Below, one piece after another: positions 1,209-28,890 of a DNA stretch of 48,107 nt; position 1 is the stretch's first letter, and every line of letters starts with the position of its first letter. The DNA lies in assembly GCF_001186125.1 (NCBI RefSeq), contig NW_014039990.1:11343-59449 (forward strand), written 5' to 3'. A program made the translations under genes and the position numbers. The notes beneath the pieces were generated by a model. That model had not been told where the DNA came from. It saw nothing but the letters and a program-made list of their open reading frames with translations, and did not search any database. The DNA comes from Sphaeroforma arctica JP610. Taxonomy: Eukaryota.

Positions 1209-3321
1209 TTATTGGTCATCTATATTGACTGCCACGCTTTCTATACAGTTAACCCGTACGAAGTCCGAATCAATTGAGTCTGTTTTGTTCAAGTACCAAT
1301 CTGCTATAGGGGGCTTCAAATTAACAAGCCCCCTTGCAACCTGAATCTCATGATCTGCTAGATCAACTTCAGATAGTGAGATCACGCGTCTGTGTAGCGA
1401 TGCGATGGCACTATAATTTCGAAATTCTTTCATATTCAGTTCAATGTTGATGCGTTCTCTGGCAATGAATCTGTCATCCGCAGCACGCTGCTGCGATAAA
1501 GCTAATTGTCCATTTTGTTTTTCCTCGGGATGCACACGTATATAAGGTGTCGCTCAAGTTCATTTCTATCCGTGAGGCCCTTGTCATATAAGTAGCATAT
1601 AAATATTGTTTGGTGCACAACATCTGTTAGGCTAGTTGCTGCTCGCATTTTGCTACCATATGTTCATTTTTATGTATGCCTATATATGTGGAAGCCTCAC
1701 AATAACCTTTTGTAATATCGGCTATTACCACAAGCTATAACGTTGTGCTTGATGGTAGTACAATTCTTATATTCACTAAAGCTCGCTGAATATAAATCAT
1801 TTGATTTGCATAGAGGAGATTCAATCTTCCTCTCAGTGCAATCTCCGATAAATAAAGCCACTCCATCGTTCAGATCCAATGCTTGCTTAGTACGCTTTGG
1901 TGTGTATGCAGCAGCTTGCTGTGGCGTAGGGAATGTTTGTCTTGCTTTAAATATGTGTGAGATCTCTATACAAAACGTAGTGTATATTCTTCGAGCCGTT
2001 TGTTCGTGAATGTCAAAGTGCGCACCTGCAATTGCCATATCATCACGGCAGTCTGAAAATATAAGTATGAAAAGGACAAATTGCTCCCAGACTGGGAGCT
2101 TCTTACTACGCTTTCTGAGTTCGAAGTCTTCCTCATCACCATCAATACCATCTGCATTTAGCTCCATTGCCGCCGCTACTCGATTGCGTACTTTATCGTT
2201 CCATTGTGTCAGATTAACAAGTCGATCGCTATAGTTAAGATACTCAAACAACAAACGAAGCACCGTCAGATTCGGTTCTCCTGTTGCCTTGCGGCAGAAA
2301 GATGGACTCTCTAACATTTTGAAGAAGTGAACAGTGCACCAACCACTGTGTCCACTTAGATTTTCAGCTTCTCTAGCTCTCTGTTCAGGGTCCATCTCTT
2401 CACGTATCTTACTTCTGTGTGTTTGAAATAGCGGTGTAATAATATCACTAGCCTGAGTTATAGTTAGTCCCCTACCCAATCTTTGCTTACTACTATACTG
2501 TAATCTTGTAGCAAGGCTAGTCATTTCTCGCCGTTCAATCTGTTGTGAAGGACACTTCCGAGCTTTCATTACGATAGAAAGTACAACTCTAAACGTTGGG
2601 ACAGCATCTCCTTTGAGTGTTGTTCGTTTCCATTTAATACCAGGTGTATTGTCCATAAACTGATCAGGTGTGAAATGTCTACGATGCATACGTAAACCTA
2701 TACGCCCATCAGACTCTTCAATTTGCTTATTAAGTTTTCACTGTAGTTTGGCGTCTAATACTACACGTGACACCCTTAGTTTTGCACGTTTCTTGTCCTT
2801 GAGTAATTCGTGTCCATTCTCAAACATAATGTTTCCCCCGCTCTCTTCCTCCCCCAGTGTACATATGCACTTAATTACCTGCTTAGTGTGTGACGGTAGC
2901 TTAGTTACACGATCTAATTGATAGTCTCTAGACCACTGAAACTCGCGAAGTGGTTTGGCATCGATGCACGCCACGATCTGCCAGTTACCCTTGAAGGATA
3001 AACTATGTATAGGAAAGTGTTTTGCGTTGATAGCTGCATGATTCTTCTTTCCATCTCTATTCTTAAACGCCTTGGCTATTGCTTCTTGGTTGATGTCTGG
3101 TTGCACGGAATACAATCACTCTAGTGCGCTTGCATCTGCTTCTTTGACTTGTACTTTGTTTTTTTGTTTTTTTTTGGGTTGTTTGACTTTATCAGTGATA
3201 TGTATCTATCTCCTTCCTGTATACAACCACGTACACTACACATACAGGGAGACATGTACTTCTTGATCTTCTTAGCTGGTGGCTCGTTCTGTCGTTCAGA
3301 CTTACGCTTCATACTGAACAA
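1209..3321 (-). pseudogene. THAP + HTH + DDE_Tnp_4 transposase pseudogene (PIF/Harbinger-ISL2EU group)
   Basis: THAP-like motifs CMCSVRGC, HRRHF and LKGDAVPTF. HTH WEQFVLFILIF..AHFDIHEQTARRI. Catalytic motifs FIGDCTERKIESP..SFSEYKNCTTIK, LYDKG (~1575-1590) and IARERINIE. ORFs 2738-3115 and 1697-2689 are in one frame separated by a single TGA, with frameshifts elsewhere. No TIRs identified. Confidence 0.85.
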
Positions 3322-4899: not shown

Positions 4900-6493
4900 G
4901 TATTATTCAACTTCATGTCTATTGACAGACAACTTGCGATAATCACTTGAAGATGAAGAGCTTATGATCGATCCTTGGACTTTATTTCAAACCCTATGCG
5001 CTATGTTCTTTACCGATCTGCTGCTCACATCTTGCCCGACCGATCAATCTATCTTATCTTGAACAACTTAAAGTGTATACACGGAGAGCTACCCCTTACC
5101 CCTATATGGCCACAGACGCTTGGCACACTCATCCCAGTACTACCACCACCATGATTCTATATGTTGTTCCCCAACTATCTACCATACCACCGCAGACATC
5201 GTCACCTCATGCATCATTTCACCATCTCCCCCTGTATCTCCCTTCTTTGTTCTGTGATCTCCCACAAATATCTTTCTCCTGACTCTATCAACTCTACGAC
5301 ACCCGTCTTCTGTTCAATCATGACCCCATTTCACTGCCTCCCAGTCTGATACCTATACCGCTATTCTTTGCCGATATTCTTCGACCGGCTCCACCTTCTA
5401 TCTCCAACTCTCCTCACCTGCCTCCCGAATCTGATGACAACTACCACTCGCCTTCTTCATCTCCTACAGCCCCCTTTGATGTTTGACCGTGCGACTATGC
5501 TCATATCCCTGACGTTCATGATCTCATGAACTCTCGTTCTCGTGACACCCGCCTTCTAAATTTGCACCATTACGTGAGTGACAATGCTGTCGTAGCCCAC
5601 GATCCTGCACATTCTGACATCACATTCCTAGAGCAGATTGCTAGTATGAACAATACACACTTTAAGAGTCTAGCCTAGGCTCAGTGTTCCCCGGTCTGGT
5701 CTGCGTGAAATGCTGCCATCCAGAAAAGACGCCTGGCACACATCACTAATGATCTCTATGATTTAGTCTGTGATTCTTCTGTCCGGCCCGGCACAAAGGC
5801 TATACATAGTAAGTACGTTCTTACTCGCAAGTACGATGAGAATGGCGTCCAAACCATCTTTAAGGCAAGAATTGTTGCTCGTGGAATTGAGCAAGAATAT
5901 GGCAACTCATATCTCGAAAGCTACGCTCCAGCAGGCTCCGCCACTACTGCACGCACGTTCGCCGCTCACGCAGCTTCTAAGGGCCTCGAGATTCCCCATT
6001 TTGACATTGAAACCGCTTCCTCTATTCTGTCCTGAACATGGTAGTCTATTTGAAGCCCTCCAAGGGCAGCGATAAAAGAGTCCTTTTGGTCCCAAACAGG
6101 CAGGCCGCCTGTGAAACCATGACATTGGTTCAAAACTCAGTTCTCCTCGGTTTAATCAGAGCTCCCGCCGATGAGCGTATTTATGCTCACTCCACCCTCA
6201 ATACCCGATTCGTTCTTTATGTCGATAAATTTGCCCCGGCTATAGTTAAAGGCTCTGTCGATGCTCAATGGTTGTTCCAGAAACTGTCCCGTCATTACTC
6301 ACTCAAGAATCTTGGGTTAGCTCGTTATCTCATCGGTCGTCGCATAACGCAACACGTTACTGGTGCTACCACCATAGATCAACACGCGTATATTACTCAC
6401 ATGATTGATACTTTTGATGTTGAAGATAATTCTATCCGCCACACACCTGGCCACGGCATTCATCCTGCGGCACTAGTTGACTCGCCTTTGTAG
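4900..6493 (+). mobile_element. Decayed Ty1/copia pol fragment (RVT_2-type reverse transcriptase), no LTRs recognised
   Basis: KAIHSKYVLTRKYDENG...FKARIVARGIEQEYGNSYLESYAP (~5790-5930) and FVLYVDKF...LKNLGLARYLIGRRI...IDQHAYITHMIDTF (ORF 6038-6493). A Pro/Ser-rich linker lies upstream. The 5' boundary is approximate. Confidence 0.85.
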
Positions 6494-7342: not shown

Positions 7343-7522
7343 TGTAGTAAACACATCAAAATACGATACTAAAACCTACTGAGTCTCCCTGAGGCTCAGT
7401 GCGGTGTATTTATTCTTATAATTGATTGTCTACGTGGTCTACAAATAATTCACCTCGTGTGAATTAATTGTAAACTAATTTTATCTCCACACTGATAGTG
7501 GTTTAAGGGGACTTTTACTACA
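7343..7522 (-). repeat. 3' LTR of the mini chromovirus
   Basis: Direct repeat of 9130-9310 with about 7 differences by eye. TG...CA termini with an 8-bp inverted repeat. Confidence 0.95.
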
Positions 7523-7530
7523 CTCCCCTC
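7523..7530 (-). promoter_or_regulatory. Polypurine tract (GAGGGGAG)
   Basis: Purine run immediately preceding the 3' LTR on the minus strand. Confidence 0.85.
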
Positions 7531-8030
7531 AAGCTCAAGCGTCACCAGTGTTGGAAGAGCTTAAAATAAATGACCTCTTAAACTATTGAATATTAAACAA
7601 ATAAAACTAGTAGTGTAAATTAAACAAAATAAAAACTAGTGAAAATCCTTCTGCTGAGTAAGTTCGTGCCTTGGAAACTGGTCTTTTGAACCATCCCGGC
7701 TGTGCTCGTATATTTTCACCCCCCCCCCCAAAAAAAAGAAAGCTAGGGTATCCGCTGGTATGTTTCACCCCCCCCCCCNNNNNNNNNNNNNNNNNNNNAA
7801 AAAAAAAAACGGAAACTACGGGTTAAGGTTACCGTCCGCGTCGGTAGGTTCCGTTACCCCCNNCCCCCCCCCCATAAGCTAGGGTATCCGCTGGAGTTAT
7901 ACTCGCCTATAAGCTCGAGTTTTGGAATCGTCGTTCGCCTCTACACCGTGGTGAAATCTCACGAGGAGAGACAAACTCCGATCCGGAAGTAGATGGTAGA
8001 CATCTAGTATTCATCAACGTAACGTTGGAA

Positions 8031-8949
8031 TTATTGGTGTTGTGCCGCTTTCTTCTTCTGGCGAGTTTGCTCGGCTTTGTGGTATGCAGCGATATCATTC
8101 GGATAGTCAAAAGCTTCGGCTGACTCCCAAGTTGGATCACCTTCCCGCCAGCGTACCAAGTATTCTGTATTTCCTGTGGAATCATTCTGTCTATGTCGAA
8201 TGATGTAACGGAACGAGGAACTATCCTGCCACATATGGTCTTCTAAAGGTATTTCGGTGGCTCTATGGACTAATCGCAAAAGTTACACTCTAACTGGTTT
8301 ATCTTTGAAAGTATCTGGAAGTGAACCATCCTTGTGTGTCAGTTTATATCCTTGTCCCTGTCTGGCTTTGACAACGTATGGTCCAAACATTGGTCGCATT
8401 GCTTTGGTTGTGCGACCTTCGGACCGTACCATTACCACATCCCCTGGTTAAAAGGCGATAAAATCGTAAGCATGGAGGCGGTCAAACTGCCTGGATAGTG
8501 TGTCTGCGTATTTCTACGTGACCTTGTAAAGCGTCGGCAAGATAGCGTCGTGCAAACGATCCAGCCGGTGTGCCCAAGCCTCATTGGTGACCGGCTGATT
8601 CCCCGGAAGGTCATCCGTGAAGTCAGCAAACGGAACATGACGGCGACCGAAGTAGGCACTGAATGGTGCTGTCTTGTGTCGCCGAGATATTCGGAGGTTC
8701 TGGCGCAGCATAATAAGTGGTAGTTGGACATCCCATGCCGTAGGTAAAGATTCACATAGCTTGCGAACTCCTTCGTGTATGTCTGTGTCTTCTCTCCGCT
8801 GCTCCCAGAACCTGAGGACGATATGGTGGCGTCTTCGCATGCATCACTCCAACTTCTTGAGTCATTAATTTAACAATCCTGTTCGAAAACTCGCCTCCCT
8901 CGTCTGATTGAATTTTCCTGGGAAAACCGTGTTCCTCAAACACCTCCAT
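8031..8949 (-). pseudogene. Integrase core C-terminal part, GPY/F motif and chromodomain (frameshifted)
   Basis: HGFPRKIQSDEGGEFSN..TPPYRPQVLGAAER, WDVQLPLIML..APFSAYFGR, MFGPYVV, and YIIRHR...EYLVRWREGDPTWESAEAF. Confidence 0.9.
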
Positions 8950-9129
8950 AAATTTATTTTCACATATCTGTGCTCGGATGACTTTGTGTCGTAATTTGCA
9001 AGCTCCTTTCAGCTATCCGGTTCTGAGGGAAATCAACTCCTGTAATTTGTCAATAAAACGAATTTCTCCGTCTACTATTATCCCCGAGATAAAATCGAAT
9101 CATACACCTAAAGTAACTAGTCGTAAAAA

Positions 9130-9310
9130 TGTAGTAAACATATCAAAATACGATACTAAAACCTACTGAGTCTCCCTGAGGCTCAGTGCGGTGTATTTAT
9201 TCTTATATTTGATCGTCTACGTGATCTACAAATATTTCACCTCGTGTGAATTGATTGTAAACTAATTTTTATCTCCACACTGATAGTGGTTTAAGGGGAC
9301 TTTTACTACA
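9130..9310 (-). repeat. 5' LTR of the mini chromovirus
   Basis: Direct repeat of 7343-7522. Confidence 0.95.
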
Positions 9311-9839: not shown

Positions 9840-10669
9840 CCAGGAGATAGTGTTGGAGGCAATAATGCGCTTTCCAAACAAGGTTCCTGATCCGGATGGT
9901 ATTCAAATCCTTAGTCTCAAGGCCGCATTATAACGATCAACTAACCCCTTGGATATGGGACGCCCTGACTTTAGCAGACCACTAATTAGAATCTTGGTTG
10001 AGATATTCTCCGCCATCTTAATGGCTGGTATATTCCCTATAGCTCTCAACTGTACCCTCCTAACAGTCCATCCAAAGAAAGCGGACATGTATATTGCATC
10101 CCCTGTCAACTTCCGACCGATAACCCTGACGCAGATTGTTCGACGCACTTTTGAGAAGTGCTCCCTACAGTTGATAACAAATCACCCCGTCTCAATCGCT
10201 CATGCCATCCAAACAGGATCCAAATCACACTACTTCTGTCAAACTTATGCCCTCGCAGCGATTAAATCTGAGACACGATTCGAGGATGTCTGGAATGATG
10301 TGTGTCTTGACATCACTAAAACACATGATAAAGGGCCCCGTCCGCGCATGTAGATACTGTTGCGTCACGCTATAGTGCCAGAGAATTGTATCAGTTGTCC
10401 CCGCGCTTTGTTTAAAACATTTCCCGTACTGGTGACGTATGTGCTAAGCTTTTTTCCTTTATTCGATGAAACAAATGCCATACTCCGAGGTTCGAGTGCC
10501 GGTTCACAGCTTTCTATCATCTATATGGACTCCCAGACTATTATGCTTGCGCAATTCCGGCCAAAACTATTCTTTTCTTTCCACTTTGTGGACGATACAC
10601 GCATCCAGGCTGCTCAGTCTGTTCGGCTGCAGCACTTTCTGAACGCAATTGATGATTGGGGTTGCCAGT
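9840..10669 (+). mobile_element. Non-LTR (LINE) reverse transcriptase remnant, interrupted by the copia insertion
   Basis: PDPDGI, HPKK..NFRPITLTQIVRRTFEK, QTG, CLDITKTHDK, RGSSAGSQLS..YMD and FVDD appear in LINE RT domain order. The sequence is cut exactly at the copia TSD. Confidence 0.85.
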
Positions 10670-10924
10670 TGTCAGGACAAACAAATCCACATTCTACAAG
10701 TCTCAAATACTAGGGCAGTTCAGTACCCCTGACTGTCACCAAGCGCCACCAAGTGTTACCCAATATATGACACCTACTATCACTATGACACCTATTATAA
10801 ATATGACGCCTATTATGATTGAACAGTGGTCTCGCCATAAGAATGTAAGGCGGTAGAATAAATATATAACACCTCAGAAGAGGGTACAATAAACTTACTT
10901 CTACTCAAGTTATATTTGTCAACA
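10670..10924 (+). repeat. Copia 5' LTR
   Basis: Direct repeat of 17834-18088 with roughly 30 differences by manual comparison. Confidence 0.95.
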
Positions 10925-10935
10925 GGTTATGGGCC
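10925..10935 (+). promoter_or_regulatory. Primer-binding site GGTTATGGGCC (half-molecule tRNA-iMet type)
   Basis: Immediately follows the 5' LTR. It matches the PBS complementary to the anticodon arm of initiator tRNA-Met used by Drosophila copia and yeast Ty5. Confidence 0.85.
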
Positions 10936-11132
10936 AATATTGGACGTAACCGTGTACGAGTACCAAACAAGCTACAACCAAAATACGCAACATTTTACGA
11001 CCTACTCTCGTATCTCTATAATTACGCTCAAAATTCGCAACTACACCTTATACACCACACATAACTAGCCATCGCACTTATCTCACATACGTAAGTCCAA
11101 ATCAACGAGCAAAACCTCTCTCCCACGACACC

Positions 11133-12540
11133 ATGGCTAGAATGGGACATATCACATGGCCAACTGCCTTTGAAGCTGTCGACGAAGCCAATCGCTTTCG
11201 CGATGAATTCTTCCCTGACTATCCCATGTACCCTAATGTGTCAGCCGCCAACCAACACCTCCAAGCCATCACTACTTGTATCAAGCAACCACGCAGCCCA
11301 CCCGATCAAGTCAAGTCTTTGGATCCACCACCCGAGCCTTATCACACTTTACCCTCGCAAAAAGCGATGCACAATTCACCAAGAAACTCAATACAGAACT
11401 TCAGGCCGAGATCGATAACTATAAACAACACAACGTCGACCTTGGCAAACGTGGCCAGTATGCCACCCTCCTCAATGAAATCAAAGACATTTCCGACCAG
11501 CTCCGTACAGCCCAAAATAATCTGCAACATCGCGATAGCCGCTCCACCTCCAATCTCACTGCCATGCAAGCTGAAATATACGAACTTCGCACCGAGCTTC
11601 AAACAGCACACGACACTATAGAACAAAATGTCAACCAGACACGAAAGTGTGAGAGCTACGCCGATCGATACGGCATTAGACCCGAAGCCCTCGGCTATTC
11701 CGCACAACTGCCGACGCAACAAACGTGTAAACTATGAAAACTTTGGGGCATGGTTTATTGGTCTTAAACTAGAGCTCGAACTCTTCGGCGTCATCCATCA
11801 CCTCCACTCTAAGTGCTCCGATTCTACAGTTGGTGGTTGCAGCGAAATTGTTGCCGATTCAAAGTGCCGACGTATCATGATCGACTCCATTGACGACAAG
11901 CTCGTCACCACCGTATACAAGAACCACCTGTCTGAAGCACCCTGGGAATTCTTTGAGTATATCTGCATCACGAATAATACCGGCAGCCAAGGACGTTTCT
12001 GGAACGGTATAAAGAAACGTACTAATTTCACTGCCACTGGTATTACTGAGTCCAGTATGCAAGCCCTATAGTCTATACGACAGGGACTACTCGACGTCGG
12101 CAAAATGATACCCGACGATTGTCTCATATGTGCTTTGCTTTACAGTCTCAGCGACAGCTATGATCTTCTCCGCTCCAGGATGTTTGTCACTGACACAGAC
12201 AAACTCACCCTCGAAGATGTCTACCAACAAACTTTAAGGTTTCAGGGTGATCATCAAATCTAACCCACCCCTAACCCCTCAGGTATCAACTCCGTCAAAA
12301 CACAATTGACAAATGGCACTGGTACCAATGGAGGCAACGGGAACCGAACCAAACGCGAACGCTACTGTCCCCTCTGTAACACTAACGAGCACGGACTTTT
12401 TAGCTGCCCAACTTCCATTTGTCGCAAATGTGGCTCGGAATACCACTTGGGAATCAAATATACTATCGACCGCAAAACACTCAAGTGCCGTAAATGCAAC
12501 AATGTGGAAGGACACAATGATCTCGCATTCTTCAAGTGAA
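11133..12540 (+). pseudogene. Copia gag (coiled-coil N-terminal extension, capsid region, zinc knuckles), frameshifted
   Basis: NYENFGAWFIGLKLELELFGV is a gag-start motif. CPLCNTNEHGLFSC, CRKCGSEYH and CRKCNNVEGH are knuckle-like motifs. Confidence 0.8.
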
Positions 12541-12689
12541 ACTACGGGGTCCGACCAAACGGTGGTGCTCATATTATACATAGCTCAACTACAAATACTC
12601 CACACATAGACTCCACGCCACCACCCTCACGTCATTACCAGAAAGGTATCGTATACACAATTCCGGAGGGACCCACAGCTCAATACCTT

Positions 12690-13000
12690 ACAGCATCTCT
12701 CATTGATTCCGGTGCTATTGTACATATTCGCAGCACAGAAACGGGAGTCATTGACATAGAACACGGGGATTTCATAGTGGAATTCTCTGACAAGACGTAA
12801 GTTGCCCTACACGAACGAGGTATACTTCCGGGTTTAGGCCCAGTGCTTATCATGCCTCAAGTTACACAGAATATACTATCAGTTCAGCTTCTACAACGTC
12901 ACTGTTACGGTATCTATTTCCCACCGGCAACCCATATGAACACAGCCACAGAATGTCACATTATCCACAATAATCAAACTATACATCGTGTACACTTGTC
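12690..13000 (+). pseudogene. Copia aspartic protease
   Basis: LIDSGAIVHI at ~12698-12727 and PQVTQNILSVQLL. Confidence 0.85.
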
Positions 13001-13069
13001 CGATGGTCACAATATAGCATTGTCAACATTGCTAGTGGATCACTCGATGAATGGCATAGAAAGCTTAGA

Positions 13070-13395
13070 TGTAGTATCTAGGGACCAGCTTATCAAAAAG
13101 CCAATACAAATCCCAAAACCCAGAATAATCAAATACTGAGTTTTGGAATTAGGATTGGAATATTTCTGATATTAGAGTCATCAGAAATAATATTGGTAGA
13201 ACCGGTAAGATATACCGGGACTCCCGCGTGTGAGAGAAACACTCAAGTAAACCCTGAGTCTAGTGAAAACACAAATAAAGACTCAGTTCGGTTTTCTCAG
13301 ACTAGGGATTTTTCCTAGCTGAGATAGCCGTACTTGAGAAGAGGTCTATTGTATCATATTGTCTCGTACCTTTCAGCTACTCTCCATACTCTACA
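13070..13395. mobile_element. Probable solo LTR inserted in the copia integrase N-terminus
   Basis: TGTAG...CTACA termini and an imperfect 4-bp TSD TAGA/TGGA. Removing it restores the codons W-H-R-K-L-G-H. Confidence 0.8.
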
Positions 13396-13479
13396 TGGAC
13401 ACACACATTCTGCTGTTAACAAAAATAGACTACTCAACAACAATATATCTATTCCCAGACCACCCCGACCCAGTATCGA

Positions 13480-13900
13480 TAATTATAAACTACATCCAGA
13501 CCTTTATCAAACATACGTCCTGGATATCTTTGGAGCTGTCGACATCGGCATATTCGCATCAGCCAACAATCATCAGGAACCTGTATATTGCAGCTTATAG
13601 CCCGATGCACCACTCGTCGATGCTTTTCAACAATCGTGGTGACAGCTCGACAAACACCTTTACGGCAATATTCCATCCCGGAGGAAAACTTGGTGCGAAG
13701 CCCTGCTCAAGTTAGAAAAGGACGACGGTCTGATGAATATGGCCTTCCCCTTGACACCTGGTACACAAAACTACAAGCAAACACTTCTGCAACTACATTC
13801 CCATGTGGAGATCATACGCACAACAGCAAACACTTTCCTCAAAAACGGCACGGGAGCCCGTTGGACCACCCAAAAGGCGATATATATGCATCGCACGTAT
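13480..13900 (+). pseudogene. DIRS/phage-Dam-like N6-adenine DNA methyltransferase domain inside copia Pol
   Basis: One frame reads NYKLHPDLYQTYVLDIFGAVDIGIFASANNHQEPVYCSL*PDAPLVDAFQQSW*QLDKHLYGNIPSRRKTWCEALLKL...MAFP. This follows the DIRS MT pattern L.p..f......G..diDLFAs..N.....ycs......DAF...W.....yaNPP. Recognised by eye only. Confidence 0.75.
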
Positions 13901-13984
13901 AGGTAATACAAAGCACGCAGTACCTCCCACGGATGACTTACTGTTCACGGAAGCCGATGTCATAGCGCACCTCTACAACCTCAC

Positions 13985-14640
13985 CTTCTGCACTCCTTAT
14001 GTGGAAAGCAAAATGCGACGCCGTCCCATAAGCATCCCGACACATATCCACCAATCGGAACGTAGACCTCGAAACAGGATTGCCCGCAACACCAAACGGC
14101 TACACGTCTAATATCAAATACTTAGACGGCAACTGTGGCATGATATTCTTCTTTCCCCTCAAACACAAAGATGATGCCACTGCTACACTGGATCAATTCT
14201 ACACCAAAATCGGCAAAGAAAAGCTTGCCATACTCACAGAGCTTAAATATGATCGTGGTGGTGAATTCATTTCTGTGGGCAAACAACATAATCATGAACA
14301 CAGTCAACAGCCTCTTAAAAGACAGCAATCAACTCGAATGTATGTGGGCAGAAGCAGCACGATATGCCGTCTTTACTCCAAACAACCACAAGAAGGACCG
14401 CAAACCTTCCTGAGAGCTGTTCTACGGAGAAAAACCGACCGACCGGCTTAAACACTTACATGTTTATTGATTTCAAGTAGCATTCATAAACCAGGACCCG
14501 GAGGGAAAATTGGACGACAGATCACTCATTGGTGTATACCTAGGTCATGACGATACCTCTAAATACTATGACGAGTGTCACATACTCAACCTCGAGTCTA
14601 GGAAGATCTGCCATTCCAGAGATGTTAAATTCAACTACTT
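13985..14640 (+). pseudogene. Copia integrase (CC half of the zinc finger, partly deleted rve core, SH3-like C-terminus)
   Basis: FCTPYVESKMRRRP, IKYLDGNCGMIFFFPLKHK..LKYDRGGEFIS, MWAEAARYA, and DDRSLIGVYLGH...SRDVKFN. Confidence 0.9.
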
Positions 14641-15590
14641 AGTCTTCCCGACTTGGTCCATGATAGAAAACACGCCGGTCCCAACATTCACGACCAAAGT
14701 CGAGGATGTTCCCACAATCTGCGAACTCACTCTTGCACTCGTTAATCAACGCCATTCAGACGCCACTAACGTAGACAGTGCCATCAGCTCTGATGCTAGT
14801 GCCATACCTTCTACGGACCCTACCATGCAACCGCAAAGTATCATACAACCACAGATAAGCGTAACACACGACCCTACGCGACTAACAGCCACCACTCCTC
14901 CTACAGCTTTACTGACGCATATCTTATTACCCACACCCAATGTTGCTCATGACGACACGCATCTTCCTAACATCGACAACACATTACCAAGTACGCCCAC
15001 ATTGGAGTCCACTATCAATGCCGACTTAGGCACGCATATTGCCAAACATCCCACATCTCGCACGCTCAAAGGCCTACTCCTTCTACCGCGCAATAATACC
15101 GGGGAACTCAACCAACCTACCCTCCCCGGAAACATGCGATGACATGTACACGTACAAAACAAATGCAGGCATACAGCGCAACTAATCAATTTGGCAACAC
15201 GTCCCCCGCCTTACCTGGTACGACACCAATCAACTTCATACCGCTTCATCGCCAGCGACTGTCATTCCCAAGGAGGTCACAATTACGCTTCCAGGGGAGC
15301 CACCGGCCATCACAGCACAGACAGCTCCGTCCATCGCCAGTTTAGCCACCCAATCTTGCAACAAACACGTCACATGGGCACTGGATATCGAAAACATCGG
15401 TCACCATCGACATGATCGACTATCGAACGGAAAAACTCAGCATTCGTGATTGACACATACGTGCCTTAGCCCATCTCAAGCGTGCACACAAACAAAACAA
15501 GGCAGACAAACAATTCAGACGCCCAGCTCGCCAGCTCGCCAAGACATGCACTAACAAACTCATGACTAATCTGCGCGCCATTATTAACGT

Positions 15591-16046
15591 TGTTAGCGTG
15601 CGGTGTGGGGGACTAATAGTAAAGTGCTAGTGTAGTTAAAGTATAGTGCATTCGAATCAATTTATTAATGATCTCACCCTCAGTTATATACTGATGATGT
15701 TTGTACTAGTGTTCAACCACTTGGGTTGGCCAGGGTAAAAACTCAAATGATTAGTATGAGAAACCTTATGCAGAACACTTTAGCACTCGGATATATTTTC
15801 CAGAAATAAATATATCATATTCTCTGTTACTACACTCAGTCTCGGACCTCGGCTTTCGGCTAGCCGGTGGCCCGTATTCTATAAATAGAATAATCTGAGA
15901 AGAAGTCTCAAATTACTCTTACGTTCTCTCGGGCTGACCCACCTATACTTATATTAATTTGAGAACAAGTCCCAAATTACTCTCGGGCTGACGACGTAAA
16001 ACGCTATTAACGTATATATAATTACGTCTACTACTGTAGTCTCTCA
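15591..16046. mobile_element. Solo LTR (family B) nested in the copia
   Basis: TGTTAG...CTCTCA ends and perfect 5-bp TSD AACGT (15586-15590 / 16047-16051). It is an inverted homolog of 22937-23378. Confidence 0.92.
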
Positions 16047-16199
16047 AACGTCATTCGTGTCCCTGCAAATCACGACTATGATGAGGACTACGATCTCCCA
16101 ATCCTCATCAATACACAACTACCCACCACAACAACATCACCCAATAGGGATCAAGCCAAACAACAGGCGATGTACTCAGAAACTGTCCAGAAGATCTAT

Positions 16200-17727
16200 A
16201 GTGTCTGTACTGCCGTACAAGTAAATCCATTAACTCCTAGCACCATCCGTGCAGCACTAAAAGGGCCCGATGCGGATTTATGGCGGGCATCTATGGAACG
16301 TGAACTCGCGAGTCTTCAGAAAACCGGCACCTTTTGTCGTCACAAAAAAATGGGTCTTCAAGGTCAAAATGATCGATGGCCTCGTTGACAAATACAAATC
16401 GCGTCTATGTGCCCGAAGCTTCACACGAACGCAAGGAATCAACTATGACGTGACATATGCACCTACCGTAGCCACGAAACACTTCACACTCTCTTAGCGG
16501 TTGCTGTATCAGCTGGGCGGCACGTTGTACGAATGGACGTCGACAGCGCCTATCTTTATGCCGACCTAGATGAACCCATATAAATGAAGCCTCCAAAAGG
16601 CTCCTTTGCAGTAGGTTTGCCGGACGATCATATCAGGAAACTGAAGAAAAGCCTCTATGGACTTAAAGAATTTGGGCGTCTCTGGCATGCTCTGATTCGC
16701 TCCAAACTACTCACAATGGGCTTTTAAGTAAGCACAACCCGACCCTTGTCTCTTCATCGCCGACACAAACAACCTCAAGTGTATCGTATTGCTTCATGTT
16801 GACGATCTTATCATTTGTGGCCAAACAGCAGCAAACGTTTAAACATTCAATCTACTCATCTCAAGCGAGTTTAGCTGCAGAGATCTAGGGACCCCACAAT
16901 GGCTATTAGGCGTTCGCATACTCACCACGCACGACTTAATCAGCATGTTACAAGACAACTACATCCAGGAAGCATTGGAGACATTTGACATAACAGTATG
17001 TCACCCAGACCCTACTCCCGCAACTCAACTACCAAACAGCGTAAACATCGGCACGGCCTTTGTATGCAAATACCGTTAATTGATCGGCACCTTACAATAT
17101 TTGTCAGTGCTCACTCGAATCGATATCACATATACTCTCAACACACTGGCAAAATATATGGCGAATCCGTCTGAACAATATTGGCACGCCGCGCCACGTA
17201 ATTTACAATACCTTAAATCTACGCCCAACCTCTGCTTAACATATCACTATCAGCCAGGACCACCTGTCGCTGATGCCATCGGCCACGCCGATTGCGCCGC
17301 TTGTCCCGTTACACGCCGATCGACAACTGGATACGTCCCACGTATCAACAAGACTCCTGTCGTCTGGAAATCAAAACGACAACTAGTTTTATCCAACAGT
17401 ACTGCCGAATCCGAATACTATGCCCTACCGGAAGCTGCTAAACACATCCAGTGGTTACGCCTCATCCTTCATGAACTCGGCTTGCCACAAACAGCCCCTC
17501 CTATTCTATATTGCGACAACAAGTCAGCCTTGCGAGCGATAGAGTCTACTGGTCCAACGAAACATCTCAAACGAGTGGACATCAGAGTTCATCATATCAA
17601 AAAATTACAGGAAATGGGAGTGATCGATGCTGCCAATATTAGCTCTCTCACAATCACGCCGATATTCTCACTAAGAATATTGCCCGACCCACGCACTCGA
17701 AACATACCTCGGAAATGCTCCGCATAA
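16200..17727 (+). pseudogene. Copia reverse transcriptase and RNase H
   Basis: ALKGPDADLWRASMERELASL, KWVFKVK..KYKSRLCARSF..GINYDVTYAP, LKKSLYGLK, LHVDDL, RRSTTGY, WKSKRQ..STAESEYYAL, YCDNKSA, and KHLKRVDIRVHHI. Confidence 0.95.
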
Positions 17728-17826
17728 TTCCACCAGCTCAGTAGAGAAACAATCCAGGGGAGACCATCACGGTGCACAAGCGAATAATAGAGATTATATT
17801 CTCGCCTTCATCAGTACATGGATTCC

Positions 17827-17833
17827 AGGGGAG
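17827..17833 (+). promoter_or_regulatory. Polypurine tract (AGGGGAG)
   Basis: Directly precedes the 3' LTR. Confidence 0.8.
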
Positions 17834-18088
17834 TGTTAGGACAAACAAATCCACATTCTACAAGTCTCACTACAAGGTCAGTTCGGTACCCCGGACTGCC
17901 ACCAAGTGTCACCAAGTGTCACCCAATATATGACACCTACGATCACTATGACACCTATTACAAATACGACACCTATTATGATTAAACAGTGGTCCCGCCA
18001 TATGAATATAAGGCGGTAGAATACAAATATGACCCCTCATAAGAGGGTACAATGTACTTACTTCTACTCAGGATATATTTTTCTAACA
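17834..18088 (+). repeat. Copia 3' LTR
   Basis: Direct repeat of 10670-10924, followed by TSD CCAGT. Confidence 0.95.
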
Positions 18089-19230
18089 CCAGTCCGGCCT
18101 AGAACAAGGGATTATTGAGCCCCGAAAGTGGCCATCGAGTAAGCTGCATGCGGTACCGCCTCTCCGTAATAGAGGACAACTAATCACGCTAACGCTAGTA
18201 GGCTTCCCTAATGTGAAAGCTCTTGACAGACACCGACTTATCCCTCCCATGCCCATGGCGGTGGAACTCTCTGGCATTTACTCCAAAAACCTAGGATTTC
18301 AACTGTCCCAGGCCATACCGGGTAACGTCCTTGTAAACACATGGACCACCTCGTGTCAGCACTATTTCAGGCTATAGTGTCCTTCCGGGCGTTTGGGTTT
18401 CATCGATTCAGCTAGCGCCATCCACGAAATCGATTGGCAATATTCGAGACATTCACTTTTTCTACGGTCACCTATGGTGGTCTGAACATCATTGCATGGG
18501 CTCCACCTATATGGCTTGTCGGATTGAACCAGTTGAACGAGCGGCACAACTCAACACTAATCCAGCAACAGCGATCATAACAGCCACTGTTTCTGTGGTT
18601 TACTTCCAGCATGACAATTTGCGGGGTACCTTGGTTAGCTACCTGGATCTACATCTCGATAAGATCAACAGTACAAACCGACTCGTCCTACTTACAAAAC
18701 TCGCTTGGACTCGTAATAGACCTCCAGACAAATTCCCGTTCAGTATTTACACTCATCTGAAATTGAAGGGCGGGTGTACACCCCAACACAAAGAACACCG
18801 TAAGGTACGCAAGCAGATCCAGCAGAATACCACGCGATGTCTCTTGGCTAATGAGATATCAATGAAAGCTCGCCGCCAGTACTACTATCGACATGTAGGG
18901 GGAAAGCTTTCCATCACGTACACAATCCGAATTCATGCCATGATAGCAACGAACAGGTAAATATTCAAATTGCTTGACTATCGGACTGGTGGATGCGCCT
19001 GTCCAGTGGTTGTGCCCCGGAGATAAGACTTTTACATCCAGCCACTTTGCTTATATCATTAGATTAATAAAACATATTCTGGTTGGCCCTAGTCTACCGC
19101 CAACTGGATCGGACTTACTACAAAAGCTACATAATCGCTTTCACTTCCCCATATTTATTTTTCACGACGGACCTTTGATCCACATTTCCGTCTCCGAAAC
19201 GTAAATCTCGGTGACCCGCAGGTCACCAGT
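18089..19230 (+). mobile_element. Probable 3' continuation of the interrupted LINE
   Basis: Contiguous with 9840-10669 once the copia and one TSD are removed. It has decayed coding-like sequence with no strong motif, and the end point is approximate. Confidence 0.55.
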
Positions 19231-20299: not shown

Positions 20300-23200
20300 C
20301 TACTAATCTCACCTGTGTACATCCTAAAGCTGAAAATAGCTGCAAAGTTTGGTCCTCAGCTAAACGAATAGAAAAAGGGCTGTATCGACATTCGAAAAAG
20401 GAGACGAATCATATTTGTACATCTGAAAGTTACCAACGAAACCGTAAAAGAGGTATAACTGGGATTTCGGTTGTATATATATTCGTGTTATCACTGTTCA
20501 TGCAAAATTTAGCTGTTGTCGGACTTTTGCCAACCTGACTTTATTACTTTTTTATTTGCAGAGTACAACATGAAGATACTCAAAACCGGAAAAACTTTGA
20601 AAAGTTTTAGACAAGTATACTGCCCCACAAGCATCTTGATTCCGCTTCAAAAGCACAAGCAGAGTTGATACTCAAACCATCACAATTGAAAGGGCATGTG
20701 AGAACAGTAGCAAATCGTACATTGATCACACAAAACAACTACAACTGATAGACTCCGTACGAGATACTCCTATGAAGGTTCCAGACACTACATTCGTAAT
20801 GTATAAAACTACATGTACTTACTTAAAAACCGATATTCCTATGTCCGATGGAATCTACTTCGTACTTGGTGGCATGAAGTGAGTTTGTAAATATCTACCA
20901 AGATGAGATGCGTTCGATGCTGCACATATGAATACTATTTACAGTGGTGTACTTCAGTTTTTCACCACATACAATGCTAATGGCCATCTGGAGTTGTTGG
21001 CTATCTCGGCAGCGAGCAAAAGAAATGGGCTTTACTGGAACAGGTTCAAGGAGCTCTCTGATAGATATTCCAGATATATCTGCGTACCTCGTAGATAAAG
21101 AATAAGGTAAGTATATCGTTTTAGATTTATAGTGACGATACCATATTTTAAGTGGGATAAATCCATATTTAATATCTTTTATATAGAACAAGTATTTAAT
21201 AATTGGAAGTATAGCCGTGTTTAAATAGGCATTCATGAGGGTATCGCAAATTCAGTGCATCAAGTTGAAGATAGGACTTGTATACTGCATGCCATCAAAA
21301 TAATATGAACAAAGGTCGACTTGGTAGAAACGAAAAACCAACTCATCAGTCGATAATTGCTATGATTAGAGCTGCTACCGAACAGGGATACAACTTCCAC
21401 GCTCAGGTAAATATTTATTTGTATACAGACGAGACTAGGAATGGGCTTTTTCTTGCACTTTATGCACAATTGTGGGTTGGTTGTGAAAATATCTGCTTAC
21501 TTATGAATCTTAGAGTAATAGAGACTAACCACGAACTTGGAGAGAATATTATGGAATACTTAGAGAGCCGAAAGGAATAATTCGCTAAATATCTATTCGT
21601 GGAGGCTCGTCGAGAACACAATGCAGGCTTCACTGATCCAGAAACGTGCGTAATTGGTAGTTTAGTCCGACATGTTAATCGCCAATTGTATGTTTAGTGT
21701 TAATTAAGATGAATTATTCAACCTTTACAAATTCAACGCGGCTCCTCTCTTGAGTATCGGATATACAACAGCTATGGTTGTGTCAAAGGTCAAATAACTT
21801 ACAATGTGGCAGGTATGTAGACAATTCGTCATACACTTACCAGTGACTTGCCTTGCCGCCAAGAAAAACTAAAACCCTAAAAACACTAGTCAACCCCTAA
21901 AAGTATTTACTTCGCAATTATGACAGAGTAAGCAAATTTTGTGCACCTGGCCATGAGAAGTGTAATATAATCAATATGCTTATACTTTATTCGAATTGGC
22001 ATATGAAGAAGAGAAAAGAGTATCTGAAAGAAGCTAGACAACTGAAGCGTGAAGGAAAGCAGGTATTCAATATTGATATCAAATGAAACATGTTTGATCG
22101 ACCAACGCTTTTTACGGATTTTATTTCTCCAGGTGACACCCTGGGCAGTAGAAAAGACTATAGCCCACCTCAATAAGTTAAAACCATGCACCGTGATTAT
22201 CGTGAGGTTGGTTCGATTGACAGGTAAACTTCAAATCGCACAGTTTAACAGTCCAGACCTGCTCAGTCAAGCTGGTACACTCTCGGGGAGTTATAGATTG
22301 CTAGACCTGCAATTTGCATGTGTCTGAAGGTATCGCATACGGGCATGCTGCTAAGTGTTTTGTGCACATTGCTAAAGTATCTAACGTGAATAGTATCGCA
22401 AGTGAGTATAACCTGTACAACAAATGCTGGTATTCGCGATTGTTTTCGGTGAACAACATTTACATCTTGCAAACCAGTTTCACGGGACAATCGATTCCTT
22501 TAACTTTGAAAATATGGAGCAGCATTCACTGCTTCCCTGTCCTACACCGAGACCAGCGGATCGCCCAAAGAAACGGTACGAAAAGGTATCTTATAGGTAA
22601 GTAGTTGTGTTTTGATGCGTTTGCATTAAAAAATACTGACCTCTTTCAAAGACCAATATGTGAAATATCTTTTCCACTATGATTGTATCAGGGATCATGT
22701 GCTTAAGAAGACTATAACGTGCTCGAAGTGTGGAGAAGCTGGCCAGAACATCAACACCTGTGATGGCGAGTATGTAGTTTATTCCTTTATTTGATTCTGC
22801 GCGCGTGAGTCAGTCTCTACAGCATCCCTTGTGTCTTTTGTGTAATGAATTGTGGTTTTCTCGCTTAACTTTTCTATGACTCTCTTACAGCGACGTATAC
22901 GAAAGCCAATAGAAGATCTCGAGAGTTCAAGGTAAGTGAGAGACTACATGAGTAGACGCATTTTTTATATCCGTTAATAACGTTTTACGTCGTCAGCCCG
23001 AGAGTAATTTGGGACTTGTTCTCAAATTAATATAAGTATATGTGGGTCAGCCTGAGAGAACGTAAGAGTAATTTGAGACCTCTTTTATAGGACACGGGCC
23101 ACCGGCTAGCCGAGAGCTGAGGTCCGAGACTGAGTGTAGTAACAGAGAATATGATATATTTATTTCTGGAAAATATATCCGAGTGCTAAAGTGTTCTGCA

Positions 23201-23600
23201 CAAGGTTTCTCATACTGATCATATAAGTTTTTACCCTGGCCAACCCAAGTGGTTGAACACTAGTACAAACACCATCAGTATATAACTGAGGGTGAGATCA
23301 TAATTAAATTTATCCGAACGTACCATATTTTAGATACACTAGCACTTTACTTATAGTCCCCCACATCGCACGCTAACAGTAAGGATTTTTTTGTTTGTAA
23401 TACATTGAGTTTGTTGCTTGTGATGTATTGTGTAACTAACATCCAGGTGTTGTGAATCACCTGCTCAAACGCACAGAGAAAGAAAAAAGCAAACGAAGAT
23501 GCACGCAGTGGACCAAAACAGTGACACCGTCAAGGATTCGCCCCTACGGAAGATGCCAACGACTGATGCGCCACTATCGTCAACGTCATCTGTCACATAT
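20300..23600 (+). pseudogene. Intron-containing Mutator/MULE transposase pseudogene
   Basis: N-terminal Zn finger LTCVHP...SCKVW...NHIC (20308-20420). AFDAAHMNTIYSGVL (D at 20916) and ANGHLELLAI. RTCILH CxxH (21279-21290). GQITYNVA|gt, with the expected Glu codon split by an intron at 21813. SWIM-like ICMC (~22315) and knuckle CSKCGEAGQNINTC (22720-22761). Several GT..AG introns. Ends are approximate and no TIRs were found. Confidence 0.8.
22937..23378. mobile_element. Solo LTR (family B, opposite orientation) inside a MULE intron
   Basis: Reverse-complement homolog of 15591-16046 with TG...CA ends and perfect TSD GTAAG (22932-22936 / 23379-23383). Confidence 0.92.
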
Positions 23601-28300: not shown

Positions 28301-28804
28301 TTTGTATATGATCGAGAAATTCGAGGGTTAAATGGTGATCAGTCAAAAATCAACCTTCACACAACCCGGATGTGAAACGGTTGTAAGATCTGTTGTCACG
28401 TGAGGACAAACTCCAGATTCAGCACGAGTAGTGAACATCAATTCGTTAAAGCGATTTAAAGCGATTTACCGGACTCGTTTATTCTCCAAGTTCCATTTTT
28501 TTTTACGTAAGTGAGGAATGGCATCCAAATTACCAACTTGATTGTCACTTATGTCTTTTATATCTATGTTAACGATATATTGAGACAGGCTTAAGGCACG
28601 CGGCGTTCTAAAATCTCAGTACTGCTGTAGCCAGTGACTATGGTATATCATACTTTCACGTTTATCGTATCCCAGATACCCTTTCTACCTATTCTAGCCT
28701 AATACTACTGTCCAACCTGACGAGCGCACTTGGAAAATTCAAATACCGCCACGGGAGTTGGTCTCCTTGGTATTTATAACAGCGAGTTAAAGAGTGGCAG
28801 TGTG

Positions 28805-28890
28805 CTTTCAAAAAGTTTCTCATACTGACCATATGAAATTTTAAGCTGGCTTATTCAAGTTGTTTGAAATAAAAGCATAAACACCAGAAG
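28805..28890. repeat. Short diverged relative of solo-LTR family B
   Basis: AGTTTCTCATACTGACCATATGAAATTTTAAGCTGGC..CAAGTTGTTTGAA resembles 23203-23257. Boundaries are unresolved. Confidence 0.4.

What the first reader, a model, noticed from the sequence alone, without database searches (positions are those of the whole stretch)
13052..14030. Ty1/copia Pol with a Dam-like adenine methyltransferase domain inserted inside the integrase HHCC zinc finger
Seen: removing the solo LTR at 13070-13395 restores W-H-R-K-L-G-H, the HH half of the copia integrase zinc finger. The CC half (C-T-P-Y[probably C]..SKMRRRP) only appears at 13989, about 195 codons later. The intervening sequence continues the same frame (two stops, one late frameshift) and reads YKLHPDLY..IFGAVDIGIFASANN...YCS..DAFQQSW..LYGNIP...EALLKL...MAFP...NTFLKNG.EPVGPPK. 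Established: normal HH-to-CC spacing is about 20-30 residues. The DLFAS..N / DAF...W / NPP motif series characterises the phage-Dam-like MTase domain of DIRS tyrosine-recombinase retroelements, not Ty1/copia. Inference: a copia lineage captured an N6-adenine MTase and fused it within integrase, so it would travel with the pre-integration complex and could mark the cDNA or target site. The catalytic motif here is NIPS rather than NPP(Y/F/W), so it may be decayed or repurposed as a DNA-binding module. I know of no description of this architecture but cannot search.
Basis: partly seen in the sequence, partly recalled or inferred. Interest (0 to 1): 0.92.

Follow-up and report, generated by a model that had tools for sequence, protein, structure and literature searches.

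The report
Copia integrase carrying an adenine methyltransferase
A broken copia retrotransposon, likely from a single-celled relative of animals, and its sister copies carry an adenine-methyltransferase-like domain inside the zinc finger of their integrase, where it would travel with, and likely mark, the element's new DNA copies.

Summary
Confirmed. The segment lies in a decayed Ty1/copia element (10670-18088: LTRs, 5-bp TSD, PR-IN-RT-RH order, RVT_2). A profile of 108 non-Sphaeroforma DIRS/gypsy methyltransferase domains hits 13481-13855 at E 1e-14. A sister protein folds (pLDDT 85) like PCIF1 and phage Dam.

The domain is heritable. A sister copy lacks the solo LTR, keeps the segment and differs mostly at synonymous sites (pN/pS about 0.15). 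Six Sphaeroforma arctica gene models carry it; five also show adjacent HH, CxxC or integrase-core sequence. The catalytic Asn is kept in 5 of 5 readable copies (N-I-P or N-Q-P), and one sister reads NIPF.

A May 2026 preprint already describes Dam-bearing LTR elements, in S. arctica too. They are described as Ty3/gypsy-like, and 'copia' does not occur in its main text. So this is a new variant: a copia host, with the domain placed inside the HHCC finger.

Likely role: integrase-tethered adenine methylation of the new cDNA (about 0.5). Activity is untested, every copy seen is fragmentary, and I found none outside Sphaeroforma (weak searches).

The parts
10670..10924 (+). 5' LTR of the copia element (TG...CA), preceded by TSD CCAGT at 10665-10669
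   Evidence: 226 of 254 aligned positions identical (89%) to the 3' LTR
10925..10935 (+). Primer-binding-site-like sequence directly behind the 5' LTR
   Evidence: sequence; its likeness to copia PBSs is recalled
11135..12540 (+). Decayed gag region with Cys/His knuckle-like motifs near 12369-12536
   Evidence: translation; only weak zinc-ribbon hits; boundaries approximate
12702..13051 (+). Aspartic protease (D-S-G-A at 12705) and following beta-barrel/linker
   Evidence: 33% identity to P0005; Pol_BBD E 0.46, weak
13052..13069 (+). First part of the integrase HH motif (W-H-R-K-L)
   Evidence: sisters read W-H-D-R-L-G-H and H-H-A-R-F-G-H
13070..13395 (.). Nested solo LTR of an unrelated high-copy family; absent from the sister copy
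   Evidence: the sister contig skips 478 bases with 145 between
13397..13474 (+). G-H (second His at 13400) and a spacer of about 25 residues
   Evidence: the homologous stretch of P0005 aligns weakly to PF13976 gag_pre-integrs, E 0.064
13475..13898 (+). Dam-like (DIRS/PCIF1-type) N6-adenine methyltransferase domain, about 140 aa: motif-I-like 13541-13555, DAF 13619-13627, N-I-P-S 13667-13678; stops at 13598 and 13640, frameshift near 13850-13856
13899..13988 (+). Linker of about 30 residues after the MTase, shared with sisters; predicted helical in P0003
13989..14000 (+). CC half of the integrase zinc finger (C-T-P-Y here; CxxC in sisters)
14044..14647 (+). Integrase catalytic core (frameshifted) and SH3-like domain
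   Evidence: rve E 0.28 in the window, 0.001-0.004 in P0004 and P0006, which are 62-68% identical here; SH3_retrovirus E 3e-8
15591..16046 (.). Second nested insertion, with an inverted relative at 22937-23378
   Evidence: 89% over 457 nt
16345..17022 (+). Copia reverse transcriptase (RVT_2, PF07727) in three broken pieces
   Evidence: E 6e-7, 3e-16, 2e-11, covering profile positions 19-242 of 244
17080..17724 (+). RNase H region of copia Pol
   Evidence: motifs read from the translation; no Pfam hit
17834..18088 (+). 3' LTR, preceded by a polypurine tract and followed by TSD CCAGT at 18089-18093

Best explanation
A copia lineage carries a Dam-like N6-adenine methyltransferase domain fused in frame between the HH and CC halves of its integrase zinc finger, where it would stay attached to integrase after Pol processing and likely methylates adenines on the element's own cDNA during reverse transcription or integration. 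Shown: the copia host, the domain's identity and position, its presence in several sister copies, and purifying selection on it. Inferred: (1) the domain came from a DIRS-type element; (2) the finger still closes around zinc with the domain looped out; (3) the domain was an active enzyme; (4) the mark would be maintained by the host AMT1 system and keep new insertions transcribable, which is the model of the 2026 DAM-LTR preprint carried over to copia. The window copy is dead (stops, frameshifts, nested insertions).
For: Identity: HMM E 1.3e-14 in the window and 2.7e-21 for P0003; PHROG DNA methyltransferase E 1e-5 for P0003; 30 of 30 Atlas feature hits are Dam clusters; AF2 model pLDDT 85.5 matches PCIF1 at Z 10.2, rmsd 2.8 over 128 residues, E. 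coli Dam at Z 8.0, rmsd 2.9 over 115 residues, and phage N6-adenine MTases. Heritability: the sister contig in 4 of 4 runs lacks the solo LTR and is collinear across HH-MT-CC-IN; six S. arctica gene models carry the domain. Selection: 14 of 21 differences are synonymous where 5.8 are expected from shuffles matched for base change (p 5e-5); the two wrong frames give 3 of 21. Catalytic potential: motif IV Asn in 5 of 5 readable copia copies, against 23 of 108 comparison domains; N-I-P is kept with two synonymous differences between window and sister. N-I-P-F fits the motif of the active RNA MTases KsgA and ErmC' (PMC3814359). Gypsy DAM-LTRs in S. arctica show more 6mA and more expression than other LTRs (preprint).
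Against: No activity data. The motif is not NPP(Y/F/W), and the fourth-position aromatic is seen in only one copy (P0003). The preprint's heterologous DAM expression in E. coli gave no 6mA, and Iyer et al. predict DIRS MTases to be inactive. The nearest solved fold is an RNA cap methylase. The AF2 model leans on 76 non-copia homologues; with 6 copia rows it failed (pLDDT 36). No intact copy was found. No single natural protein spanning HH-MT-CC was retrieved, so closure of the finger was not modelled. The donor is unresolved: long branch, nearest neighbour a DIRS-type protein used in the seed.
Confidence: 0.5

Rival explanations
1. The domain is a catalytically dead or weak pseudo-enzyme kept as a nucleic-acid- or chromatin-binding module. 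It tethers integrase to cDNA ends or steers integration, for example toward 6mA-marked DNA.
For: The first Pro of motif IV is replaced (I or Q) in all five readable copies; 85 of 108 comparison domains have F or H in place of Asn yet persist; Iyer et al. propose inactive binding roles; negative E. coli assay; the position on integrase suits targeting.
Against: Asn is kept across subfamilies only about 40% identical, and the motif-I Asp and Phe are invariant in the 77-row alignment that includes P0003.
Confidence: 0.27
2. The domain is active but on RNA (element genomic RNA, its cap, or the tRNA primer inside the particle), perhaps as a dimethylase.
For: The top structural match is the cap-specific adenosine methyltransferase PCIF1, followed by KsgA and Erm proteins; DIRS MTases belong to the PCIF1 clade; N-I-P-F matches the (A/S/N)(L/I/V)P(Y/F) motif of RNA dimethylases.
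Against: Sequence and feature neighbours are phage DNA Dam enzymes; PCIF1 also tops the list because no DIRS or phage-Dam domain of this family was matched among solved structures; fusion to integrase points to DNA.
Confidence: 0.2
3. A one-off DIRS fragment inserted into a dead copia copy, with no role in transposition.
For: All copies seen are broken; only two copies at 80% identity or more are visible in the runs.
Against: Same position in at least three diverged subfamilies; in-frame fusion; pN/pS 0.15-0.19; DIRS proteins match the window only over the MTase, with no RT or RNase H; no terminal repeats.
Confidence: 0.03

Closest known systems
DAM-LTR retrotransposons, ichthyosporean lineage (bioRxiv 10.64898/2026.05.21.726589)
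   Same: LTR retrotransposon with a Dam-like domain in Pol; reported in S. arctica, the species of all six copia-type protein hits; same proposed 6mA logic.
   Different: Described as Ty3/gypsy-like and classified by RVT_1; 'copia', 'Ty1', 'zinc' and PF07727 occur 0 times in the main text. This element has RVT_2 and copia domain order, the domain sits inside the integrase HHCC finger, and the motif is N-I-P rather than N-P-P. The preprint's supplements were not seen.
Methyltransferase domain of DIRS1-like tyrosine-recombinase retrotransposons
   Same: Same domain family: 24-33% identity over the domain, same motif series.
   Different: In the DIRS-type proteins retrieved it follows RT and RNase H; most read FPPF (66 of 108). 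Here only the MTase was taken, into an element with a DDE-type integrase.
PCIF1/CAPAM and phage Dam (PF05869)
   Same: Same fold (Z 8.8-10.2 to PCIF1; Foldseek E to 4e-6 against phage MTases).
   Different: 12-19% identity; stand-alone or WW-fused enzymes, not Pol domains; P0003 scores 19.2 bits against PF05869, under the 28.1 cut-off.
DNMT-bearing retrotransposons (SymbioLINE, SymbioDIRS, KnitGypsy; PMC5890265)
   Same: Capture of a DNA methyltransferase by a retrotransposon under purifying selection.
   Different: Cytosine enzymes of another family; the paper states that Symbiodinium copia elements lack any DNMT.

Membership tests
Ty1/copia LTR retrotransposon | Paired TG...CA LTRs with 5-bp target-site duplication | tested here: met
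   10670-10924 and 17834-18088, 89% identical, CCAGT on both sides
Ty1/copia LTR retrotransposon | Pol order protease-integrase-RT-RNase H | tested here: met
Ty1/copia LTR retrotransposon | RT of family RVT_2 (PF07727) | tested here: met
   three pieces, E down to 3e-16
Ty1/copia LTR retrotransposon | Integrase HHCC residues present | tested here: met
   HH at 13055 and 13400; CxxC at 13989 with the second Cys in sisters
Ty1/copia LTR retrotransposon | HH-to-CC spacing of about 23-32 residues (recalled value) | tested here: not met
   196 codons; this is the novelty, not a reason to remove it from copia
DIRS/PCIF1-type Dam-like N6-adenine MTase domain | Profile match to the retroelement MTase family | tested here: met
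   E 1.3e-14 window, 2.7e-21 P0003; PF05869 only under its cut-off
DIRS/PCIF1-type Dam-like N6-adenine MTase domain | Class I MTase fold | tested here: met
   tested on sister P0003 (58% identical to the window peptide):
DIRS/PCIF1-type Dam-like N6-adenine MTase domain | Canonical (N/D)PP(Y/F/W) catalytic motif | tested here: not met
   NIPS, NIPF, NIP, NI then frameshift, NQP
DIRS/PCIF1-type Dam-like N6-adenine MTase domain | Adenine methylation activity | not testable with these tools
   needs biochemistry or modification-aware reads
DIRS element (nested fragment) | RVT_1 RT and RNase H adjoining the MTase | tested here: not met
   P0008, P0009 and P0011 hit the window only at 13472-13861
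DIRS element (nested fragment) | Tyrosine recombinase | not tested
   no dedicated search; the 196 codons are accounted for by spacer, MTase and linker
DAM-LTR as defined in the 2026 preprint (Ty3/gypsy-like) | RVT_1 RT and gypsy organisation | tested here: not met
   RVT_2 and integrase before RT
DAM-LTR as defined in the 2026 preprint (Ty3/gypsy-like) | DAM domain falls in the ichthyosporean DAM-LTR clade | not testable with these tools
   those sequences were not retrieved; the two gypsy DAM proteins found (P0122, P0128) do not group with the copia domains
DAM-LTR as defined in the 2026 preprint (Ty3/gypsy-like) | Excess 6mA and expression of copies | not testable with these tools
   only contigs were available

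The most novel reading that the evidence does not exclude
An undescribed copia lineage built an integrase-methyltransferase chimera: an active N6-adenine methylase with a KsgA/Erm-type N-I-P-F pocket looped out of a still functional HHCC finger. It rides the intasome and writes 6mA on the cDNA or the target site at integration, seeding the host's activating mark on each new copy. This would be an independent capture of the domain, in a second LTR superfamily of the same host.
Probability: 0.4. Interest if true: 0.85.

Novelty: new variant of a known kind. Interest (0 to 1): 0.66.

Why it matters
Copia elements rarely gain domains: a screen of 121 plant genomes found 15 unusual domains, all in gypsy and none in copia (PMC9289625). 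A Dam capture in copia, in a host that also has gypsy DAM-LTRs and a 6mA methylome, would be independent support for the idea that LTR elements exploit host 6mA. The position is informative in a way the gypsy cases (between RT/RNase H and integrase) are not, because it ties the enzyme to the protein that holds the cDNA ends. That narrows the open question of what retroelement Dam domains act on. It also suggests that the integrase zinc finger tolerates an insert of about 170 residues. Existing S. arctica nanopore data can test the model directly.

Tried and rejected
Searches that gave nothing:
- Pfam and PHROG gave no hit for the window peptide. A sequence search of solved structures with the alignment gave only titin at E 0.59.
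- AF2 on six copia rows failed, pLDDT 36. The IQ-TREE run timed out without supports, so only FastTree supports are cited.
- The wide VIA-align search never ran. No host genome is held, so no genome-wide copy census was possible.
- No RNA holder listed; this says nothing on expression.
- Earlier scan findings: three look-ups, none returned.

Searches for relatives outside Sphaeroforma found none:
- P0003 against longer proteins, 0 of 162 candidates; copia alignment, 5 of 3886; metagenome contigs, 0 of 79; viral contigs, 0 of 3.
- Mixed alignment against longer proteins: 106 hits of 7991, none with PF07727. That search also missed three of its own input proteins (P0004, P0005, P0008), so these blanks are weak.

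Dropped or treated as leads:
- P0014 (EGF-repeat protein) was dropped as a chance match to residues 3-29.
- Three of 111 comparison proteins (P0007, P0013, P0106) were dropped from the profile as under 100 aa.
- Atlas on P0004 residues 55-160 gave gag_pre-integrs at 0.89, a lead only.

Considered and rejected: a chance ORF (wrong-frame controls); an assembly artefact (the window stretch lies on single contigs with 0 differences); a nested DIRS fragment; a gypsy DAM-LTR mistaken for copia.

Full report
Observation. The window holds a full-length but decayed LTR element at 10670-18088. Its LTRs are 89% identical (226 of 254), start TG and end CA, and are flanked by CCAGT on both sides. Pol runs protease (D-S-G-A, 12705), integrase, RT, RNase H. 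The RT matches the copia family RVT_2 in three pieces covering profile positions 19-242 of 244. The integrase HH motif is split by a 326-bp solo LTR (13070-13395). After it the frame continues for 150 codons with two stops, shifts near 13850-13856 and reaches C-T-P-Y at 13989, 196 codons after the second His. The usual spacing of 23-32 residues is recalled, not from a call.

Identity of the insert. The window peptide, read with X at its stops, had no Pfam or PHROG hit. phmmer over 1.84 billion representatives gave 13 hits at E<=0.001. Six are Sphaeroforma arctica gene models (P0003-6, P0010, P0012; names). Six carry the retroelement MTase (P0007-9, P0011, P0013, P0015), three of them with RT or RNase H hits as in DIRS. 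One is a chance EGF-repeat match. A mixed alignment retrieved 106 longer proteins, mostly RVT_1 plus MTase, two with gypsy organisation. An HMM built from 108 of 111 non-Sphaeroforma domains hits the window at 13481-13855 with E 1.3e-14; the next locus scores 0.13. Those domains were collected with a profile that included copia rows, but the HMM contains none. P0003, which is 58% identical to the window peptide and spans the domain, hits PHROG DNA methyltransferase at 1e-5, and 30 of 30 Atlas feature hits are Dam clusters. With 76 homologues it folds at pLDDT 85.5. The best solved matches are PCIF1/CAPAM (Z 10.2, rmsd 2.8, 128 aligned) and E. coli Dam (Z 8.0, rmsd 2.9, 115 aligned), then KsgA, Erm and M.TaqI; the best viral matches are phage N6-adenine MTases. 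With only six copia rows the fold failed, so the model depends on the non-copia alignment.

Heritability. Public contigs from 4 of 4 runs hold a second copy at a depth similar to the window's own. It lacks the solo LTR (478 bases skipped, 145 between) and is collinear through the MTase, CxxC and integrase core. Only these two copies reach 80% identity over 13400-13760. Some of these runs may be the window's source, so they show copies within one organism, not spread. The six gene models lie on scaffolds of six different lengths. P0004 reads linker-HH-MTase-integrase core; P0005 protease-HH-MTase; P0010 (H)H-MTase; P0006 MTase end-CxxC-core; P0012 MTase end-core; P0003 MTase plus linker. They differ from the window and from the sister contig, which gives at least eight loci if the window is from the same species (inferred). 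They fall into subfamilies as distant as 38-40% identity. For the P0005/P0010 subfamily only the HH-MTase junction is seen, so placement inside the finger is shown for the closer subfamilies only. No retrieved copy is intact.

Selection. Over 13507-13612, where the difference list is complete, 14 of 21 differences are synonymous (pN/pS 0.15). Shuffles matched for base change expect 5.8 (p 5e-5), and the two wrong frames give 3 of 21 each. The C-terminal stretches give 4.5 of 7 and 12 of 19 (pN/pS 0.17 and 0.19), but those lists come from a truncated table. The ratios are uncorrected and include neutral decay after insertion. The sister has Asp where the window has Gly in motif I, a sense codon at the first stop and Cys at 13998, so these are lesions of this copy. 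It has frameshifts of its own.

Active site. Motif IV reads NIPS (window), NIP (sister contig, fourth residue not visible), NIPF (P0003), NI then frameshift (P0004) and NQP (P0005). Asn is therefore kept in 5 of 5 readable copies, against 23 of 108 comparison domains; 81 have Phe and 4 His. The first Pro is never kept. PMC3814359 (passages) says that the Asn/Asp side chain and the main-chain carbonyl of the next residue activate N6, and gives (A/S/N)(L/I/V)P(Y/F) as the motif of the active RNA dimethylases KsgA and ErmC'. PMC11789486 (passages) says the motif IV aromatic is required in those enzymes. So NIPF is compatible with catalysis and NIPS probably is not. The aromatic is seen in one copy only.

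Origin. The copia domains form one clade (FastTree support 0.995) on a long branch. The nearest neighbour is a DIRS-type Pol (P0011, 0.908), not the two gypsy DAM proteins. DIRS proteins match the window only over the MTase, and the insert has no terminal repeat of 7 bp or more.

Mechanism. From established copia biology (recalled), protease releases integrase from Pol, and integrase binds the cDNA ends and takes them to the target. A domain inside its N-terminal finger would stay attached and sit at the cDNA. The most likely role is adenine methylation of the new copy, then kept up by the host 6mA system (0.5). Rivals are a dead binding or targeting module (0.27), an RNA methylase (0.2) and a functionless insert (0.03). 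The architecture itself I put at about 0.95.

Prior art. The preprint 10.64898/2026.05.21.726589 (whole main text read; supplements and figures not seen) reports Dam domains moving from DIRS into LTR elements at least four times and calls this the first such report. One lineage is ichthyosporean, includes S. arctica and is described as conventional Ty3/gypsy. The paper finds raised 6mA and expression on these elements and no activity in E. coli. 'Copia', 'Ty1', 'zinc' and PF07727 occur 0 times in its main text. Its screen used RVT_1 and a Dam cut-off of E 1e-5, which P0003 (19.2 bits) would likely miss (inference). Its supplements may still hold these elements among the 46% orphan DAMs. PMC5890265 (passages) and PMC4738411 (passages) place Dam-like domains in DIRS only; the latter groups them with PCIF1 and predicts inactivity. 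PMC9289625 (passages) found no domain gain in plant copia. Nine library searches (listings only for papers not named here) showed no copia element with this domain. The library lacks most subscription papers and Repbase.

Verdict. Real, heritable and selected. It is a new copia variant of a kind first described for gypsy in 2026, with an unusual position inside the integrase zinc finger. Function is untested and the known range is one genus. Interest 0.66.

Noticed in passing
window 13070-13395: Solo LTR of a family with very high copy number (summed contig depth up to several hundred times the flanks); its internal region is not in this window.
   Followed up: partly
window 15591-16046 and 22937-23378, partial at 28799-28864: Non-coding repeat of about 450 bp nested between integrase and RT, with an inverted 89% copy elsewhere in the window; class not determined.
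   Followed up: partly
window 7343-9310: Short element of about 2 kb bounded by 96% identical TG...CA repeats of about 180 bp. On the minus strand it holds only the end of a gypsy-like integrase with an SH3/chromodomain-like tail: an internally deleted LTR element.
   Followed up: partly
window 5709-6490: Fragment of a second copia RT (RVT_2 E 1e-10 and 2e-5); no MTase hit near it.
   Followed up: partly
window 1697-2737 (-): 346-aa ORF with a weak THAP hit (E 0.018) and a Harbinger-like transposase look (recalled resemblance).
   Followed up: no
window 36384-41220 (+): Host Nup98-like gene with FG repeats, GLEBS motif and autopeptidase domain.
   Followed up: partly
P0005 residues 214-256 and P0010: In this subfamily a Cys (C-N-D-Y) lies about 24 residues after the second His, where PF13976 expects CxxC and just where the MTase begins. 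It may be a relic of the insertion point or an alternative zinc ligand.
   Followed up: no
P0125-P0127, P0130, P0131, P0133, P0134: Unnamed proteins of 1066-1195 aa with no Pfam hit at E 0.01; the three read show RT-like and RNase-H-like motifs and a C-terminal MTase containing a CxxC insert. Probably a divergent DIRS-like group.
   Followed up: no
P0122, P0128: Gypsy polyproteins with Dam between RNase H and integrase and an NPPF motif, matching the DAM-LTR layout of the preprint.
   Followed up: partly
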